This document shows, piece after piece, positions 7,182 to 22,277 of a DNA stretch of 24,861 nucleotides. Position 1 is the stretch's first letter; each line of letters starts with the position of its first letter. The notes under the pieces are model-generated. The model saw only the letters and a program-made list of their open reading frames with translations. It did no database searches and had not been told where the DNA came from. Both the position numbers and the translations under genes were made by a program. Source of the stretch: a virus (taxonomy: Duplodnaviria > Caudoviricetes); the IMG/VR virus record IMGVR_UViG_3300048578_000174, positions 1-24,861 of that record. One strand, written 5' to 3'.

Positions 7182-8057
7182 CTAAGTATCACTATCATCG
7201 CTTACACGCTCGTTTGCTTGAAAATCCAACCGCGTTCGCTTTTGGAAATGCTCTTCTGTGAGCGAAACATCATCACTAATTCTCATGTAGATATTACCAT
7301 GATCAAACCATTTACTTCTATCAGGTTCACAATAGTAATCATACAACCGATAAAAGCACTCGGATAGAAGCATGTTTTCTTTTTTATGCCTAGTAGCATC
7401 TTCCTCGTTACTCATGATTACCATATCAATTGGCAGTAAAAAAGTATATAAAAAATAATTGCTGCTTCGTTTGTAATCTTCTGCAAGCAAGGGAAAATCT
7501 AATAACTCAGCTAAGTCTGAAATTAGCTCTGGACATCTGTATAGATGTAAAAAATAACCCGCTTTTTTTATTCTGTCTGCGAAAGCAAATCCATTAATAC
7601 ATTGATCAATTTGTGTATAGTCAGACTGTCCTAGTCTGATCTTGATTCGCGAAGATGCTGGTGATTGAAATTCCGGTACTATCTCAATTCCATTATGATA
7701 CATGTGTATTATCTTTGCATCTTTTGCGAAAAAAATACCGTGTTCTTTCAGGAAATTGGCTACTGGCGAATTACTAAGAAGTAGCTCTGCTAAGTTACAA
7801 CATACATTTTCTTCATCCATGGAACCAACTAACCGGCGCGATAAATGGTGCAAACAAACACTATCTATTTGCTGTCTAGCACGTATAATTGTGAACTCCG
7901 ATACTTTCTGCTTAATGCGCACCCCGTCGATTATTCCATTCTCAAAGCATCCGTCATATAGAGAGCGAGAAAACTCCTCTATCTCTGAAGAATGGCAGTC
8001 AAATAACTCAATAATCGATGTCTCAATGGATTCGATCGTGTCAGTGCTAATATACAT
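7182..8057 (-). CDS. Hypothetical protein, moron between tail chaperone and tape measure genes
   Basis: 291 aa ORF, visibly AT-richer than flanks, own candidate promoter and terminator; no family recognised. Confidence 0.8.
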   Translation of the reverse strand: MYISTDTIESIETSIIELFDCHSSEIEEFSRSLYDGCFENGIIDGVRIKQKVSEFTIIRARQQIDSVCLHHLSRRLVGSMDEENVCCNLAELLLSNSPVANFLKEHGIFFAKDAKIIHMYHNGIEIVPEFQSPASSRIKIRLGQSDYTQIDQCINGFAFADRIKKAGYFLHLYRCPELISDLAELLDFPLLAEDYKRSSNYFLYTFLLPIDMVIMSNEEDATRHKKENMLLSECFYRLYDYYCEPDRSKWFDHGNIYMRISDDVSLTEEHFQKRTRLDFQANERVSDDSDT

Positions 8058-14519: not shown

Positions 14520-14673
14520 ATTTCTATTACTAGTTTTGGTAGATTAGCGAAGGAAGTTCAACCACTCTCATTATGGAATAGACTCCTGCGGTTTACTAAA
14601 TGATTCTGCAAGTTAATATCAGTCGGCGCGAACAAATTAGTACGCACTAACCAAATCTTTTTTGAGGGTAAAT

Positions 14674-15927
14674 ATGACCATTAGATGGATAGTTTTCATA
14701 ATCTTGTTGATCTTAACTGTCATTGGTATCTTGTTTGCCGTTCGGAAACGAAATTTAGCTTCAATTGTCATTACTTTCATTTTTGGCTTTGCTACTTTTG
14801 CTGTAGTTTGGATAATTCCAGAAAGCATCCTTGATATACCCATCCCTTCTCTTTTCAAGCACACCATCACTGCTGAGAGTACACCAATACCCGAGTTCAC
14901 AATAACACCGGAAAATAGCCAAGACTCTGCTCCATTTATTAGTCCCACAATGGAAGTAGATACCGTTCAACCTAACAGCGAACAGAATTTGAATCAAGAT
15001 AAGGAAAATGAGGATATTTTCTTCATCAATAATGCTGAGGATCACAAGATATTTTCGTATAATCCGAACACATCAACTTCCATGATTGTTGTAAGCGACC
15101 CATGTTGTGAGATCATACGTGTGGATCAAGGGCGAATCTTTTATCAGAAAGCTGACTACAAAAACGATGGTGGTCTTTTAGCATGGACGCCCACTGGAAT
15201 TTATTCGAGTAATATCGATGGTACCAATGAGTTGATGTTGAATATACCTAAATACTCTGAAGTAGCAATGTTTTCTGATGATTATGTATTTTACAATAGT
15301 TCAGAGGATTCATACGCTCTACACATGTGTAACCTCGATGGAACAGATGACAAACAATTGGTATCCACTTCATGTGGCGGGTTGTTTTTGACTAGTGAAA
15401 AACTGTTTTATTCGACAGGTGCTGATGACGGTTACAAATTCTATTACCTGAACCTGAAAACGATGGAAAGGGTAAAACTATCTGACGAAACATTTACTAT
15501 CGGAGGTATAAACACTCTCAATGGAAAAGGGGAAAGTGAGTATAACGGCAGCCTATACCTAACGAAGATCAATTGGACCGATGGCCAAATTGGGCATCAG
15601 TGGTCATATGATTCACCATATGTGCTCGATCTGAGCTCGTACGAAATTAGTAAATATTCACCGATAAAGGACCCAGTAGAAACAATTTTCTCTGTGCAAG
15701 ATGGCTATATCTACTATCAGACAATGATGGGAGATATTTCTAGGACGAGCTTGTTAAATGGAGAAACGAATATCATTGCTACCGATCAGGGCGAAGTCTT
15801 GAAAATTTGCGACGATTCTCTTTATTATCTTCGATACGGTTCAAACAGTAGTGGTCAACGCGAGATAAGAGGCTTATATTTTGCTGCTCTTGATGGCAGT
15901 GTAAATAAAGCTTTATTACTTTGGTAA
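14674..15927 (+). CDS. Membrane-anchored beta-propeller protein (DUF5050-like), moron between terL and portal
   Basis: ATG 14674 after GAGGG; two N-terminal hydrophobic helices, P/T/E-rich linker, repeated blades (IYSSNIDGT, LHMCNLDGT, FAALDGS, DGYIYY); AT-rich, opposite strand. Confidence 0.8.
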   Translation: MTIRWIVFIILLILTVIGILFAVRKRNLASIVITFIFGFATFAVVWIIPESILDIPIPSLFKHTITAESTPIPEFTITPENSQDSAPFISPTMEVDTVQPNSEQNLNQDKENEDIFFINNAEDHKIFSYNPNTSTSMIVVSDPCCEIIRVDQGRIFYQKADYKNDGGLLAWTPTGIYSSNIDGTNELMLNIPKYSEVAMFSDDYVFYNSSEDSYALHMCNLDGTDDKQLVSTSCGGLFLTSEKLFYSTGADDGYKFYYLNLKTMERVKLSDETFTIGGINTLNGKGESEYNGSLYLTKINWTDGQIGHQWSYDSPYVLDLSSYEISKYSPIKDPVETIFSVQDGYIYYQTMMGDISRTSLLNGETNIIATDQGEVLKICDDSLYYLRYGSNSSGQREIRGLYFAALDGSVNKALLLW

Positions 15928-17796: not shown

Positions 17797-18249
17797 TTAT
17801 CCGCCCGATGCGTTCGGATACTCATTCTGAACAGCCGCCCTCAGAATGTTCACGTCGAAGCCCGCTGCTCTGTATCCTTCCAGAAGCGTGCTGTAATAGA
17901 AAGCGCTCGGCCTGTTTCGCGGTTTGTTGGCAATCAGGATGTACACAAAAGCATCCATCGCAGCACCATTCAATCGTACCTTTACCGTTGTCTTTCGGTA
18001 CAGTTCCGGTACTCCAATCCATCGATCGAGCGCAGCTTCGTCTTGTGGACTTATCTCCCACAGAAGTGCGGGTACGCTTCCGCCTTTTTTCTTCTCAATC
18101 GTCGCAACCGCGCTGGCATTGCCGCCGCGAAACGCAAGCTTGAAATTCTTCAACTCTGTCGTGCCAATTGGCTTCGCAGTCGGGCAACGCTTCGCCATTT
18201 CGCTGCGGTTCAGACCAACGCCGTAAGTAGCAAACGCTCGATTACTCAT
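17797..18249 (-). CDS. Gamma-glutamylcyclotransferase (GGCT/AIG2)-like protein, probably inactive
   Basis: ATG 18249 overlapping DUF4314 end; YG..LN..EM..RCP.A, VPALLWEI...DEAALDR, PSAFYY. Confidence 0.8.
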   Translation of the reverse strand: MSNRAFATYGVGLNRSEMAKRCPTAKPIGTTELKNFKLAFRGGNASAVATIEKKKGGSVPALLWEISPQDEAALDRWIGVPELYRKTTVKVRLNGAAMDAFVYILIANKPRNRPSAFYYSTLLEGYRAAGFDVNILRAAVQNEYPNASGG

Positions 18250-18475
18250 TTTCCTCAATCCTCCGGCACTCATCTTCGCCGAATACCACCCCGAGCGAAC
18301 TACCACAATCCCAATTCACATGAATCGTCCCGATATCATCGACCATGGTGACCGTCCCTCGGTCACCCTGTCGCAGGTTGGTGTAAGGATCACTCATGCA
18401 AATCAGCATCACCCGAGTGCCGGCTTTGTAATACGCTTTGAGCTGTTTCAGCATCTCCGGATGAATGGCTGTCAT
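18242..18475 (-). CDS. DUF4314-family protein
   Basis: 77 aa; GTRVMLICMSDPY..GDRGTV..VDDIGTIHVNWDCGSSLG...GED. Confidence 0.85.
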   Translation of the reverse strand: MTAIHPEMLKQLKAYYKAGTRVMLICMSDPYTNLRQGDRGTVTMVDDIGTIHVNWDCGSSLGVVFGEDECRRIEENE

Positions 18476-19203
18476 TCTTCATCACCCGCTTCCCGCGTGG
18501 TGCGAAACGCCGCGTTACCGGTAAGGTTTTCCAGTAGAAGTTTCCTCGAATACTTGAACTCTTCCCCTATGAACCCCAACCGCAACAGGAAGCAGCGGAA
18601 GGCGTATTTCTCATTCTCAACTTCCTGTTCCGTCGCGCTTACACGCTTTTGTGTGCGCGCTAGTTCGCAAAGTCCCTGTACCAGTTGGGAGTAAGCAATG
18701 AGCTTCGCCTGATCGTCGGTCGTTCGGAACCAGCCGAATTCGATCCTGTCTGGATGATCTGTGATCGGCAGGCTGTCCGTGCCGAGCGCTTTCTTGAGCA
18801 GTGTCGACTTGCTCGCGACCAGTCGCTTCAAGTTCTCCATCGAAGTGGGAGTCATGCCTTCCTTCGGCAACTCAACTGCAAGGCGTTCAGGGTTGATCTC
18901 CCGAGGGGTTTTTTCAATAGGCGAAATCGCCTCGACCGCTTTGGGTTCAGCGGGCTTTACCACTTCGCCGATCCGTTCGCCGGCGAAACCGTCGTGCGCC
19001 AGTTCGCGGATCAGCATTTCAATCTGCGCCTCATCTGCGCCATCTGGGCAAGTAATCGTACCGTTCTTGTCGATCGTGTATGCACCGACCTGAAACGCGA
19101 AGCTCGGCGCGCCGAGGTATCGCGTCGTGTCCTGCAGCACATCCCTCATGACCGCGACCAGGGCCTTTCGTCTGTCCCCCGTAACGTTGTACTTGATTTG
19201 CAT
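18472..19203 (-). CDS. Conserved phage 'virulence-related' protein of unknown function
   Basis: 243 aa; RKALV..YLGAPSFAF, NEKYAFRCFLLRLGFIGEEFK..RKLLLENLTGNAAF; GAAAGGAAGG RBS. Confidence 0.75.
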   Translation of the reverse strand: MQIKYNVTGDRRKALVAVMRDVLQDTTRYLGAPSFAFQVGAYTIDKNGTITCPDGADEAQIEMLIRELAHDGFAGERIGEVVKPAEPKAVEAISPIEKTPREINPERLAVELPKEGMTPTSMENLKRLVASKSTLLKKALGTDSLPITDHPDRIEFGWFRTTDDQAKLIAYSQLVQGLCELARTQKRVSATEQEVENEKYAFRCFLLRLGFIGEEFKYSRKLLLENLTGNAAFRTTREAGDEE

Positions 19204-19234: not shown

Positions 19235-19266
19235 CATACATCACTCTTTCGGGTGTGAATATCAAG
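19235..19266 (-). promoter_or_regulatory. Candidate internal promoter for the virulence-related/DUF4314/GGCT trio
   Basis: CTTGATA-ttcacacccgaa-AGAGTGATGTATGT: TTGATA -35-like box overlapping the MTase stop codon; -10 atypical. Confidence 0.4.
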
Positions 19267-21055
19267 CTGTTTCGTCCAGATATACAGCGGATTCCGACAG
19301 GATCCCCGATAAAACAAACACAACGCACGGCAGCGCGACGCCGTTGCCCCAGAGTTTGTACTCCGCAGCGTCGGTGTAAGGGTCGTTCAGCCATTTCGCG
19401 ATTTGCTTTCTCGTCTTCGGTTTTATTGCCGAGCCTGTGATTCGGCGGTGTGTTTCGAAGACGTCCAGCCAGCATTCGATTTCCTGATCGGAAGGATGCT
19501 CTGTACCAAGATCCGCGCACCACCAATCGGGGAAGCCTTGCAACCGAGCGCATTCCTCGGGCGTCAATCTCCGCACCGCATATTTCGGTTCTTCCACGCG
19601 CCTTGCTGGAACGAGCATGTCGTTGGACGCATCCTGCCCGTTGAATCCGCCGGGGTGTGCGCCGGGTGAAATCGTACCGCAAACGCGCTGATACGGCTCC
19701 ACCACATATTTACTGTCTTCCACTTGCTGGTTCTGCGGGAATTTATAATCGCTCGCGCAAAGGCAGCCGACCCGATCGGGATAGCACACGACATGATGAT
19801 CGGAAGTGTTGAGCGTAAAACACACGCCTTCGTTCACGCCGTCGCCTTGCGGTCCGTTGCGGTCGCTTCGCCCGATCATACTGCCCTGCAGCGCATAGGT
19901 TTGCTGCTTTATACCAATATTCGCAGATAACGCTCCGGCGACACCACCGAGATCACGCGCCTCATCACGCTGGTTATGAGTAAACGCGACGACCGCGATA
20001 CCGCCCTGATTACAATCCGGCCTGCCGCCGTTCGCGTCAAGCGTACGTGCGGTAGCCGCTTCGTAAAATCCGCTTTCGGGGTTATCCGATCGCATGGCAT
20101 TGCTGCCATCGGAGCACACGCCGAACGCGCAATTCATAACGAGCGGGACGTTCATACCGCCAGTTCCCATGCGCGCCGCGAGCGTCTGAACTAGTCCGTC
20201 CTTTTCCAGCTTGTAACGTCCGTCGATCGGGTAATTCTCGATAGCTACCGCCGTTTGATTGTCGCCCATATCCGCGCGAAGGCATCCAGTGCTTTCCGCC
20301 CATGCATGACCGCCCATACGCCTCAGCGCGCCGGGTTCGAATCCAACTGACGCGATAGCGCCTCCTGAAGAATCTCCGGCAGGTGTTTGCCTCTGGTTTG
20401 CGCACGGCGTAAAATCCCTGCGCACGCCTTCGCGCTCAAATAGTATTTCTCCGGCGCGTTCGTCGATAAAACTTGCGACAAGGTAGATACGGCGGCGGCG
20501 TTGGGCGACTCCGAAATATTGCGCGTCGACAACGCGGTACGCCAAGCTCCATCCTGTTCCCAGATATACGTCGGCGTAAGGCCATTTGCAGTCATCAGGC
20601 GCAGACACCTCGGCTCCCGGCGCGACGATACTGACGATCGCGTCGAGTACCGCTTTGAAGTCCTGTCCTCCGTTACTGCTGAACGCGCCCGGGACGTTTT
20701 CCCAGACGATGTACTTTGGATATGCTCCATTCGTTACTTCCCTCATTTGCCGCACGATTCGGATCGCTTCATGAAACAAGACAGATTGCGATCCCGACAA
20801 TCCTGCGCGCTTACCCGCAACTGACAGGTCGGTGCAGGGCGAGCCGAACGTGATGATATCAACCGGCTCGATCAAAGCACCATCGATACGCGACACATCT
20901 CCTAGATGCCGGATGAACGGCATTCTCTTCGTCGTAACGCGGATCGGGAACGGTTCAATCTCTGATGCCCATACAGGGCGAATCCCGCTGAGCAGACCGC
21001 CGAGTGGAAATCCGCCGCTGCCGTCGAATAGGCTACCAAGCGTCAGTTCACGCAT
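19262..21055 (-). CDS. DNA (cytosine-5) methyltransferase with long variable region
   Basis: ATG 21055 after GGAG; motif I FDGSGG, IV FGSPC, VI ENV, VIII QRRRR, IX RRLTPEECARLQGFPD, X WGNGV. Confidence 0.95.
   Translation of the reverse strand: MRELTLGSLFDGSGGFPLGGLLSGIRPVWASEIEPFPIRVTTKRMPFIRHLGDVSRIDGALIEPVDIITFGSPCTDLSVAGKRAGLSGSQSVLFHEAIRIVRQMREVTNGAYPKYIVWENVPGAFSSNGGQDFKAVLDAIVSIVAPGAEVSAPDDCKWPYADVYLGTGWSLAYRVVDAQYFGVAQRRRRIYLVASFIDERAGEILFEREGVRRDFTPCANQRQTPAGDSSGGAIASVGFEPGALRRMGGHAWAESTGCLRADMGDNQTAVAIENYPIDGRYKLEKDGLVQTLAARMGTGGMNVPLVMNCAFGVCSDGSNAMRSDNPESGFYEAATARTLDANGGRPDCNQGGIAVVAFTHNQRDEARDLGGVAGALSANIGIKQQTYALQGSMIGRSDRNGPQGDGVNEGVCFTLNTSDHHVVCYPDRVGCLCASDYKFPQNQQVEDSKYVVEPYQRVCGTISPGAHPGGFNGQDASNDMLVPARRVEEPKYAVRRLTPEECARLQGFPDWWCADLGTEHPSDQEIECWLDVFETHRRITGSAIKPKTRKQIAKWLNDPYTDAAEYKLWGNGVALPCVVFVLSGILSESAVYLDETA
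20323..20730 (-). CDS. Nested +1-frame ORF inside the C5 MTase, candidate M.EcoHK31I-beta-like partner polypeptide
   Basis: 135 aa, ATG preceded by GAGGGAAG; protein-like C-terminal half STLSQVL...EKYYLSAKACAGILRRAQTRGKHLPEILQEAL. Confidence 0.65.
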   Translation of the reverse strand: MEHIQSTSSGKTSRARSAVTEDRTSKRYSTRSSVSSRREPRCLRLMTANGLTPTYIWEQDGAWRTALSTRNISESPNAAAVSTLSQVLSTNAPEKYYLSAKACAGILRRAQTRGKHLPEILQEALSRQLDSNPAR

Positions 21056-22277
21056 TGGCAATCTCCGAGTACGGCGCTTTTGTTCCGTCCCTAATCAGAA
21101 TTACGTCTTTCTCAGAGCCGACCTGTTGAATATACCGTTTCACAATCACATCGCAGTATTTTTCATCAATCTCGATCATGCGACAGACGCGATCGGTCTG
21201 CTCACAGGCAATCAGGGTGCTACCGCTGCCGCCGAACGGGTCGAGAACGACACAGTTCGCCATGCTGGAGTTCAGAATAGGATACGCCAACAACTCCACC
21301 GGCTTCATGGTCGGATGGTCGGCATTCTGTTTGGGTTTGTCGAACTCCCAGATGGTTGTTTGTTTACGATCGGCGTACCATTCGTGCTTACCTTTTTTCT
21401 TCCACCCGAACAACACCGGTTCATGCCGCCACTGATACGGACTTCGACCGAGTACCAGCGACTGCTTCTTCCAGATGCAGGTGCCGGAGAGATAGAATCC
21501 CGCTTCCGAGAACGCTCTTCGGAAGTTCAAACCCTCCGTATCAGCGTGGAACACATAGATCGACGCGTCGTTCGACATATAGACTTCCATGTTCTGAAAC
21601 GATGCGAGCAGGAAATCATAAAACGCGGAGTCTGTCATGTTGTCGTTTTTAATCTTTCCCGCGCTGCCTTCGTAGTTCACATTGTAAGGAGGATCGGTGA
21701 CCACGAGGTTTGCTTGCCCGCCGTCCATGAGAAGCTCGAACACATCACGCTTCGTGCTGTCGCCGCAGACAAGCCTATGTTTTCCGAGCAGCCAAAGGTC
21801 ACCCGGCTTTGTCATCACCGGCTCTTTCAGCGCGGCGTCCACATCAAAATCATCGTCATGAACATCGGCACGCTGAGTATCCTTAAACAACGCGTCGATC
21901 TCCGGCGCGTCAAAGCCCGTCAGCGAAACGTCGAAATCCACAAGTTGCAGATCGGAGATCAGAAGCGAAAGCTTCTCTTTATCCCATTCGCCGCTGATTT
22001 TGTTGAGCGCGACATTGAGCGCTTTCTCTTTCTCTTCGCTCATCTCCACAACAACACATTCAATCTCGGTCACACCTGTATCGACCAGCACTTTCAGCCG
22101 TTGGTGTCCGCCGACGACGTGGCCTGTGGTCTGATTCCAGATGACCGGCTCTACATATCCAAACTCCAATAGCGAACGCTTCAGCTTTTCGTATTCCGGG
22201 TCGCCGGGCTTCAGGTCTTTGCGTGGATTGTAATCCGCCGGAACGAGATTATCGACCGGCAGCGTTTGAATGACCAT
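21048..22277 (-). CDS. ParB-like domain fused to N6-adenine/N4-cytosine DNA methyltransferase (beta class)
   Basis: 409 aa; YNPRK..GYVEPVI..VGGHQR (ParB), TDPPYN (motif IV), HPTMKP, LDPFGGSGST (motif I). Confidence 0.93.
   Translation of the reverse strand: MVIQTLPVDNLVPADYNPRKDLKPGDPEYEKLKRSLLEFGYVEPVIWNQTTGHVVGGHQRLKVLVDTGVTEIECVVVEMSEEKEKALNVALNKISGEWDKEKLSLLISDLQLVDFDVSLTGFDAPEIDALFKDTQRADVHDDDFDVDAALKEPVMTKPGDLWLLGKHRLVCGDSTKRDVFELLMDGGQANLVVTDPPYNVNYEGSAGKIKNDNMTDSAFYDFLLASFQNMEVYMSNDASIYVFHADTEGLNFRRAFSEAGFYLSGTCIWKKQSLVLGRSPYQWRHEPVLFGWKKKGKHEWYADRKQTTIWEFDKPKQNADHPTMKPVELLAYPILNSSMANCVVLDPFGGSGSTLIACEQTDRVCRMIEIDEKYCDVIVKRYIQQVGSEKDVILIRDGTKAPYSEIANA

What the first reader, a model, noticed from the sequence alone, without database searches (positions are those of the whole stretch)
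20323..20730. Overprinted gene in the +1 frame of the cytosine methyltransferase: candidate two-polypeptide MTase system
Seen: a 135-codon same-strand ORF starts at the ATG formed by the MTase Asn-Gly codons (AAT GGA) just before motif VI, has an SD-like GAGGGAAG, and spans MTase residues about 109-244. Its C-terminal half (STLSQVL..PEKYYLSAKACAGILRRAQTRGKHLPEILQEAL) looks like a real helical protein, while the overlapping main-frame stretch after motif VIII looks like a linker. I recall this motif in hypothetical proteins linked to C5 MTases (unverified). Known: M.EcoHK31I needs a beta polypeptide encoded in an alternative frame within its alpha gene, reported to supply motif IX. Here the main frame keeps its own motif IX, so the nested protein may be a structural or regulatory subunit of a multi-TRD phage MTase that standard annotation would miss.
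Basis: partly seen in the sequence, partly recalled or inferred. Interest (0 to 1): 0.8.

Follow-up and report, generated by a model that had tools for sequence, protein, structure and literature searches.

The report
Hidden beta subunit in phage methyltransferase
A second 135-residue gene is encoded one base out of step inside this phage's DNA cytosine methyltransferase gene, is kept by selection in relatives including phage P1, and likely supplies a structural piece of the enzyme that the main chain lacks.

Summary
A 135-codon ORF (20730-20323, minus strand) lies in the +1 frame of a 597-aa prophage C5 methyltransferase. It is a selected gene. The frame matches and is open in 80 of 80 loci picked by main-frame peptides (3 cut by contig ends). 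ATG or GTG sits at the same codon in 80 of 80 sequences. A Shine-Dalgarno site is conserved, and synonymous variation drops from 0.87 to 0.36 in the distal overlap. The product is homologous to the beta chain of a natural EcoHK31I-type locus (hhalign 98%, E 1e-14), also in +1. It lacks motif IX, which the main chain keeps. Its conserved core matches the post-motif-VIII 'LxDxLE..EKYYLS' segment of single-chain phage methyltransferases (26 of 28), which the main chains lack (0 of 45). It is most likely a separately translated subunit that completes the enzyme in trans. Binding and activity are untested. The same hidden frame is in P1 dmt, mycobacteriophage Omega and several proteobacterial phages, and none of the 11 annotations I opened lists it. 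This scan noted the layout earlier on other DNA (14 findings). Verdict: new variant of a known kind.

The parts
20323..20730 (-). Nested gene in the +1 frame, 135 aa (beta-like chain)
   Evidence: homology to EcoHK31I-type beta
20737..20744 (-). Shine-Dalgarno-like GAGGGAAG for the nested start; relatives mostly read TGAGGTG
   Evidence: the Arg codon that forms it is AGG in 52 of 52 against 12% background; 10-mer counts
20344..20562 (-). Nested residues 57-129, the part aligned with EcoHK31I-type beta residues 37-110
   Evidence: BLASTP 36% over 74 aa, E 2e-12; predicted helices 84-90, 100-113 and 119-131
20428..20484 (-). Nested residues 83-101 (TLSQVL..EKYYLSAK), equivalent to the post-motif-VIII segment of single-chain C5 methyltransferases
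   Evidence: placed on M.HhaI about 192-209 through
19262..21055 (-). Main-frame C5 cytosine methyltransferase (alpha-like chain), 597 aa
   Evidence: PF00145 E 4e-38, TIGR00675 above cut-off, PADLOC orphan methyltransferase model E 8e-218, fold match to M.HhaI over 192 columns
20834..20839 (-). Motif IV catalytic Pro-Cys (73-74)
20693..20701 (-). Motif VI ENV (119-121), inside the overlap
20477..20503 (-). Motif VIII QRRRRIYLV (185-193); its last codons also encode the start of the nested TLSQVL
19574..20425 (-). Main-frame variable region with several TL..GG-type target-recognition-like units; not confidently modelled without DNA or partner
   Evidence: sequence; pLDDT below 50; residues 383-427 align with the variable region of the EcoHK31I-type alpha chain, E 2e-5
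19529..19576 (-). Motif IX (VRRLTPEECARLQGFP) in the main frame
   Evidence: aligned to M.HhaI 271-291
19298..19360 (-). Motif X (YKLWGNGV...)
21048..22277 (-). Upstream ParB-N6/N4 methyltransferase gene, overlapping the C5 gene start (context)
   Evidence: near full length upstream in 73 of 80 related loci

Best explanation
The methyltransferase gene holds a second, selected gene in its +1 frame, and its product is likely translated from its own ribosome-binding site and likely works as the small subunit of a two-chain enzyme. Shown: the main chain has motifs I-VIII, a long variable region, and motifs IX and X, but lacks the LxDxLE..EKYYLS segment that follows motif VIII in single-chain phage relatives, and the nested chain carries that segment plus two helices. 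Inferred: the small chain docks on the large chain and fills the start of the small domain, beside motif IX, so that the target-recognition units are positioned on DNA. Without it, methylation would be lost or much reduced, as in M.EcoHK31I. Inferred: the enzyme protects phage DNA from host restriction at one or more sites.
For: Frame open and homologous in 80 of 80 loci chosen by main-frame peptides, 44-93% identity in the best segment; 3 are cut by contig ends. Start is ATG in 73 and GTG in 7 of 80 sequences at one codon, while the main-frame residue varies among N, D, H and G; 0 of 48 non-redundant N/D/H codons end in C against 49% elsewhere. Shine-Dalgarno conserved, with AGG in 52 of 52 and median duplex energy -9.2 against -2.5 kcal/mol at other out-of-frame starts. 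Synonymous observed/expected is 0.87 before, 0.61 and 0.36 in the two overlap halves, and 0.92 at IX-X. After motif VIII the main-frame first position varies most (0.41) and the third least (0.18), so the +1 frame dominates there; P1-like genes show the same shift. Homology to EcoHK31I-type beta in the same frame. A nested-only profile finds the post-VIII segment in 26 of 28 single-chain enzymes. The reverse profile hits 84 of 102 nested proteins, 0 of 45 main chains and 0 of 102 shuffles. The main-chain versus single-chain profile alignment ends at motif VIII. In 82 of the best 120 longer homologues the nested domain heads a chain that goes on to motif IX. In M.EcoHK31I both chains are needed, and deleting 41-50 N-terminal beta residues, which cuts into the shared region and leaves motif IX, weakens association and abolishes in vitro activity (PMC2836561 passages).
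Against: No expression, peptide or activity data exist for this locus; no sequencing run held half of the gene's words. The one function the literature assigns to EcoHK31I beta, supplying motif IX, is absent here. The match to the single-chain segment is short (about 18 residues), and against SPbeta MtbP alone it was weak (hhalign probability 10.7%). The single-chain set is small, mostly Firmicute, and was gathered partly with a peptide from that segment. The Caulobacter C2 relative has the open frame but no ATG or GTG start near the usual place. The window's own Shine-Dalgarno is moderate: 8% of other out-of-frame starts score as well. In PMC2836561 some in vivo protection remained with the 42-50 residue beta deletions.
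Confidence: 0.75

Rival explanations
1. The nested protein is made and binds the methyltransferase but is a modulator (inhibitor, specificity or stability factor) that the enzyme does not need.
For: The main chain has all ten canonical motifs, and its catalytic domain and IX-X region model confidently on their own. Motif IX, the part credited to EcoHK31I beta, is not on the nested chain.
Against: The nested core is a main-chain element in single-chain enzymes and is missing from all 45 main chains tested. It is fused ahead of motif IX in 82 of 120 longer homologues.
Confidence: 0.15
2. The +1 frame is reached by a programmed frameshift from the main frame and yields a fusion protein, not a separate chain.
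For: 24 of the best 120 longer homologues are N-terminal methyltransferase motifs fused to the nested sequence, some with tens of cluster members. One distant relative lacks a clear start.
Against: Start codon and Shine-Dalgarno are conserved. The nested TLSQVL overlaps the codons of motif VIII, so a shift early enough to include it would lose motif VIII. EcoHK31I beta has its own start codon and works from a separate plasmid (PMC2836561). I did not inspect the DNA of these 24; they may be indels or assembly errors.
Confidence: 0.06
3. The open frame is a by-product of main-frame conservation or of an RNA element, or a relic with no current protein function.
For: Synonymous resampling leaves the frame open in 10% of trials for the window and 14% on average.
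Against: 0 stops in 6,627 codons; codon-position variability follows the +1 frame; +1 amino-acid diversity (0.25) is lower than main-frame diversity (0.48) after motif VIII. Single-chain relatives have 6-14 stops in the same 107 codons, 19 of 19.
Confidence: 0.03

Closest known systems
M.EcoHK31I (E. coli HK31, YGGCCR), alpha/beta C5 methyltransferase
   Same: Beta lies wholly inside alpha in the +1 frame and starts just before motif VI (44 nt before ENV there, 29 nt here). The chains are homologous: beta residues 37-110 to nested 57-129, and alpha 32% over 234 columns. I tested this on natural loci L085 and L086. L086 matches the native part of a published primer exactly, and the L085 chains start as the published primers read.
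   Different: There beta is 176 aa and carries motif IX, and alpha (309 aa) lacks it. Here motif IX is in the main chain and the nested chain stops after the helices. EcoHK31I has a cognate endonuclease next to it; this is an orphan phage enzyme with a much longer variable region.
M.AquI (CYCGRG), two-polypeptide C5 methyltransferase
   Same: Two chains make one enzyme, split in the variable region after motif VIII (PMC3404938 passage). Relatives in which the nested domain heads a chain ending in IX-X (locus L186) divide the motifs in a similar way.
   Different: In M.AquI the small chain has the distal variable region and IX-X. Here these stay on the large chain. I did not compare sequences with M.AquI.
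Single-chain multispecific Bacillus phage methyltransferases (SPbeta MtbP; phi3TI type)
   Same: Orphan phage C5 enzymes with a long variable region, carrying the same LxDxLE..EKYYL segment after motif VIII.
   Different: The segment is in the main chain, and their +1 frame is closed (6-14 stops per 107 codons in 19 of 19).
Phage P1 Dmt
   Same: Its C5 domain has the same +1 nested ORF (162 aa), open in 80 of 80 P1-like loci, most of them near-identical to P1.
   Different: Dmt is fused to a Dam domain. The GenBank note says it 'perhaps' methylates C5 cytosine, and no nested gene is annotated.

Membership tests
C5 cytosine DNA methyltransferase (main chain) | Motifs I, IV (PC), VI (ENV), VIII, IX and X in order, with a Rossmann-type catalytic domain | tested here: met
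   model matches M.HhaI, E 4e-12
C5 cytosine DNA methyltransferase (main chain) | Methyl transfer to cytosine C5 at a defined site | not testable with these tools
   needs an assay or a methylome
M.EcoHK31I type | Small chain encoded wholly within the large-chain gene in another frame | tested here: met
   +1 frame in both
M.EcoHK31I type | Small chain homologous to EcoHK31I beta | tested here: met
   hhalign 98.4%, E 1.1e-14; BLASTP E 2e-12
M.EcoHK31I type | Motif IX on the small chain and absent from the large chain | tested here: not met
   Motif IX is at main-chain residues 494-509; the nested chain ends before the matching beta segment
M.EcoHK31I type | Both chains required and associated for activity | not testable with these tools
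   needs knock-out and complementation
M.EcoHK31I type | Cognate restriction endonuclease beside the gene | tested here: not met
   Neighbours are a ParB-N6/N4 methyltransferase and an unassigned 243-aa ORF; the record is about 52% complete, so a distant partner is not excluded
M.AquI type | Small chain carries the distal variable region and motifs IX-X | tested here: not met
   IX-X are on the main chain
Multispecific phage C5 methyltransferases (SPbeta/phi3T type) | Several target-recognition domains between motifs VIII and IX | tested here: inconclusive
   Long variable region with repeated TL..GG-like units, read from the sequence (the motif is recalled); one unit aligns with EcoHK31I-type alpha, E 2e-5; region not modelled
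Multispecific phage C5 methyltransferases (SPbeta/phi3T type) | Single chain with the post-VIII LxDxLE..EKYYL segment in cis | tested here: not met
   0 of 45 main chains have it; it is on the nested chain

The most novel reading that the evidence does not exclude
A large clade of phage, prophage and plasmid C5 methyltransferases, P1 Dmt included, are obligate multi-chain enzymes with a hidden +1-frame subunit, and M.EcoHK31I is just the one characterised member. Motif IX and the target-recognition units move between the two frames, giving two-chain layouts and, in mycobacteriophage Omega, a three-chain layout. Recoded or codon-optimised copies of these genes would lose the subunit and read as inactive.
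Probability: 0.6. Interest if true: 0.75.

Novelty: new variant of a known kind. Interest (0 to 1): 0.62.

Why it matters
If right, over a thousand viral loci (about 1,400 stored IMG/VR stretches by estimate) annotated as single-chain orphan methyltransferases make a second, usually unannotated subunit, including the much-studied P1 dmt. It would change what the EcoHK31I beta chain is thought to do: its conserved contribution would be the post-motif-VIII segment, with motif IX optional. It gives a natural series of split points for studying how overlapping genes and split enzymes evolve, and a practical warning that gene synthesis with recoding would silently remove the subunit.

Tried and rejected
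The nested protein has no Pfam, NCBIfam or PADLOC hit, and only a weak PHROG 16143 'DNA methyltransferase' hit, E 0.0016. A sequence search of the PDB with the nested alignment gave nothing below E 0.5. Its lone model is low-confidence (pLDDT 64, pTM 0.32) and fold searches were uninformative (best Z 2.6); this says nothing either way. Sequencing-run search: no run held half of the words; shares were small and I did not lay them. The primer search of plasmids found no EcoHK31I locus; E. coli chromosomes and GTDB genomes did. A tree of motifs I-VIII separates 20 nested-type from 9 single-chain enzymes by one branch (99/96), but it is unrooted, flagged for long branches, and samples only SPbeta-like single-chain enzymes, so one origin is not shown. 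I checked whether the C. thermocellum methylome paper (PMC6791906, passages) tested a family member. It assigns Cthe_1749 to GCWGC by elimination, the passages show no expression of it, and I did not establish that it belongs to this family. The antisense 446-aa ORF over the upstream gene is rejected as a GC-dependent shadow. Outside the overlap the +1 frame has a normal stop density, so the other short +1 ORFs in the gene were not pursued. Literature: ten searches showed no paper describing the nested frame in phage methyltransferases. The library lacks most subscription papers, Lee et al. 1995 was not held, and REBASE and SEA-PHAGES notes were not searchable.

Full report
Observation. The window is a linear, roughly half-complete virus record with terminase, portal, capsid and tail-like genes, named from the sequence and in part by Pfam. 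The C5 methyltransferase runs 21055-19262 on the minus strand (597 aa). The nested ORF runs 20730-20323 on the same strand, one base out of step, 135 aa. Its ATG is made by Asn109-Gly110 (AAT GGA), and GAGGGAAG lies 6 nt upstream.

Is it more than chance? Alone, not by much: resampling synonymous codons leaves the frame open in 10% of trials. I therefore took the best 80 of 719 IMG/VR loci found with main-frame peptides only. All 80 carry a homologous ORF in the +1 frame. Three are cut by contig ends, and in one (L023) the main frame is broken while the nested frame is whole. For codon work I used 79 loci plus the window (L023 dropped), reduced to 52 below 93% nucleotide identity. The start is ATG in 73 and GTG in 7 of 80, always at the same codon, although the main-frame residue there is Asn, Asp, His or Gly. 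None of 48 non-redundant N/D/H codons ends in C, against 49% elsewhere. The Arg codon that forms the Shine-Dalgarno site is AGG in 52 of 52 (12% elsewhere). Synonymous variation, observed over expected, is 0.87 before the overlap, 0.61 and 0.36 in its two halves, and 0.92 at motifs IX-X. The +1 frame has 0 stops in 6,627 codons in the overlap and 3.7% outside. After motif VIII, diversity by main-frame codon position is 0.41/0.20/0.18, the pattern expected when the +1 frame is the constrained one. These sequences are related, so the counts are not independent events. Controls behave as they should: single-chain relatives have 6-14 stops in the same span (19 of 19), and a long antisense ORF next door is open in only 8 of 73 loci.

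Spread. The nested protein has 449 database relatives of similar length, nearly all of the 120 listed unnamed, and matches 145 phage and 534 plasmid records. In 12 loci I opened, picked because they matched the nested or the beta sequence, the +1 frame is open across motifs VI-VIII. They are P1 dmt, Omega gp127, Vibrio K457, Bcep22, two Caulobacter phages, a Pseudomonas, a Roseobacter and a gut phage, a Bifidobacterium plasmid, and two EcoHK31I-type loci. None of the 11 annotation tables lists the nested gene (the plasmid table is known to be incomplete). In 80 P1-like loci the frame is open in all 80 and the core pattern is found in 77, but most are near-identical to P1. Variable sites shift from third position upstream (9/3/28) to first position after motif VIII (24/16/13). 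One relative, Caulobacter C2, lacks an ATG or GTG start at the usual place.

Relation to M.EcoHK31I. I read passages and supplement 1 of PMC2836561 (the figure with the beta sequence is a picture and was not readable) and passages of PMC3404938. They state that beta lies in another frame within alpha, carries only motif IX, and is required. A published primer located natural loci: 81 of 5,426 E. coli genomes and three GTDB genomes. L085 has a 309-aa alpha, a 176-aa beta in the +1 frame and a convergent gene, which in the E. coli locus L086 is annotated as a NotI-family endonuclease. The nested family aligns with beta at 98.4% probability, E 1.1e-14; pairwise 36% over 74 residues. The shared part is beta 37-110; beta then continues to motif IX, which the nested chain lacks. 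Progressive N-terminal deletions of beta into this shared part lower association and abolish in vitro activity although motif IX remains; some in vivo protection persisted.

What the nested chain supplies. SPbeta MtbP has LREILEDFVDEKYYL in its main chain after motif VIII, and this is where the nested profile lands, weakly. A profile built from 8 such segments, picked with a pattern I wrote, scores 84 of 102 nested proteins above 8 bits, against 0 of 45 main chains, 0 of 102 shuffles and 0 of 102 reversals; hhalign 89.8%, E 1.8e-6. In the reverse test a nested-only profile hits 26 of 28 unselected post-VIII stretches above the 99th percentile of shuffles. These came from 33 of 50 loci with a usable motif VIII, and one of the six search peptides lay in this segment. 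The single-chain profile aligns that segment to M.HhaI about 192-209, which I recall as the entry to the small domain that packs near motif IX. The main-chain and single-chain profiles align only up to motif VIII. The main-chain model is confident for the catalytic domain and IX-X, unmodelled between, and matches M.HhaI over 192 columns. Among the best 120 of 148 longer homologues, 82 have the nested domain at the head of a chain that reaches motif IX, 32 of them continuing into motif I as if permuted; 24 are N-terminal motifs fused to the nested sequence (motif calls by loose patterns; DNA context seen only for L186). In Omega the pieces are three ORFs: I-VIII, the nested chain, and variable region plus IX-X.

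Mechanism. Shown: a selected +1 gene with a conserved start and ribosome-binding site; homology to EcoHK31I-type beta; complementary presence and absence of the post-VIII segment. Inferred: internal initiation, association with the main chain, completion of the small domain, and a requirement for methylation (0.75). Rivals are a dispensable modulator (0.15), a frameshift fusion (0.06) and a by-product (0.03).

Known or new. It works like M.EcoHK31I and is related to it, but it fails one defining feature (motif IX on beta) and has no endonuclease beside it, so I file it as a new variant of a known kind. Ten literature searches and passages of PMC2884959, PMC11855218, PMC3706429, PMC12707154, PMC5944983 and PMC6791906 showed no description of the nested frame in phage enzymes. 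PMC11855218 describes a different out-of-frame gene, an HNH endonuclease in an insertion. Coverage is limited to open-licence papers, the original EcoHK31I papers were not readable, and supplements other than the one named were not read. This scan's own notes hold 14 earlier findings of the same layout in other genomes (8 shown; a search by sequence found none). I saw them after forming and testing my reading, and they are not independent support.

Noticed in passing
L081 2201-2689 (phage P1, AF234172, inside dmt): Unannotated 162-aa +1 ORF homologous to the nested protein; GenBank says Dmt only 'perhaps' methylates C5 cytosine.
   Followed up: partly
L082 2182-3486 (mycobacteriophage Omega gp127-128): The methyltransferase appears to be in three ORFs: motifs I-VIII (gp127), a nested +1 chain, and variable region plus IX-X (gp128); both called genes are annotated hypothetical.
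   Followed up: partly
L186 and proteins such as P0194, P0228, P0234: The nested domain is fused to variable region and IX-X, and in 32 of 120 listed proteins runs on into motif I, suggesting a split and circularly permuted layout.
   Followed up: partly
L086 2824-3354 (E. coli AR_0017) and 80 more E. coli genomes: An EcoHK31I-type restriction-modification locus; in the one record opened, RefSeq lists only the alpha chain, not beta.
   Followed up: partly
window 20832-22172 (+): 446-aa antisense ORF over the ParB-N6/N4 methyltransferase; open in only 8 of 73 relatives and tracking GC content, so a shadow.
   Followed up: yes
window 14662-15927 (+): 421-aa DUF5050 protein with an N-terminal hydrophobic stretch, on the opposite strand between the terminase-like and portal-like genes; looks like an inserted accessory gene.
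   Followed up: no
window 7182-8057 (-): 291-aa ORF with no Pfam hit, inserted between the tail assembly genes and the tape-measure-like gene.
   Followed up: no
window 17797-19203 (-): Small cluster between the methyltransferases and the large terminase-like gene: an unassigned 243-aa ORF, DUF4314, and a gamma-glutamyl cyclotransferase-like gene.
   Followed up: no
L219 (Bcep22): Locus tags jump from gp25 (the methyltransferase) to gp27; a gene call may have been dropped in this region.
   Followed up: no
L023: The main methyltransferase frame is interrupted after motif VI while the nested frame stays whole.
   Followed up: no
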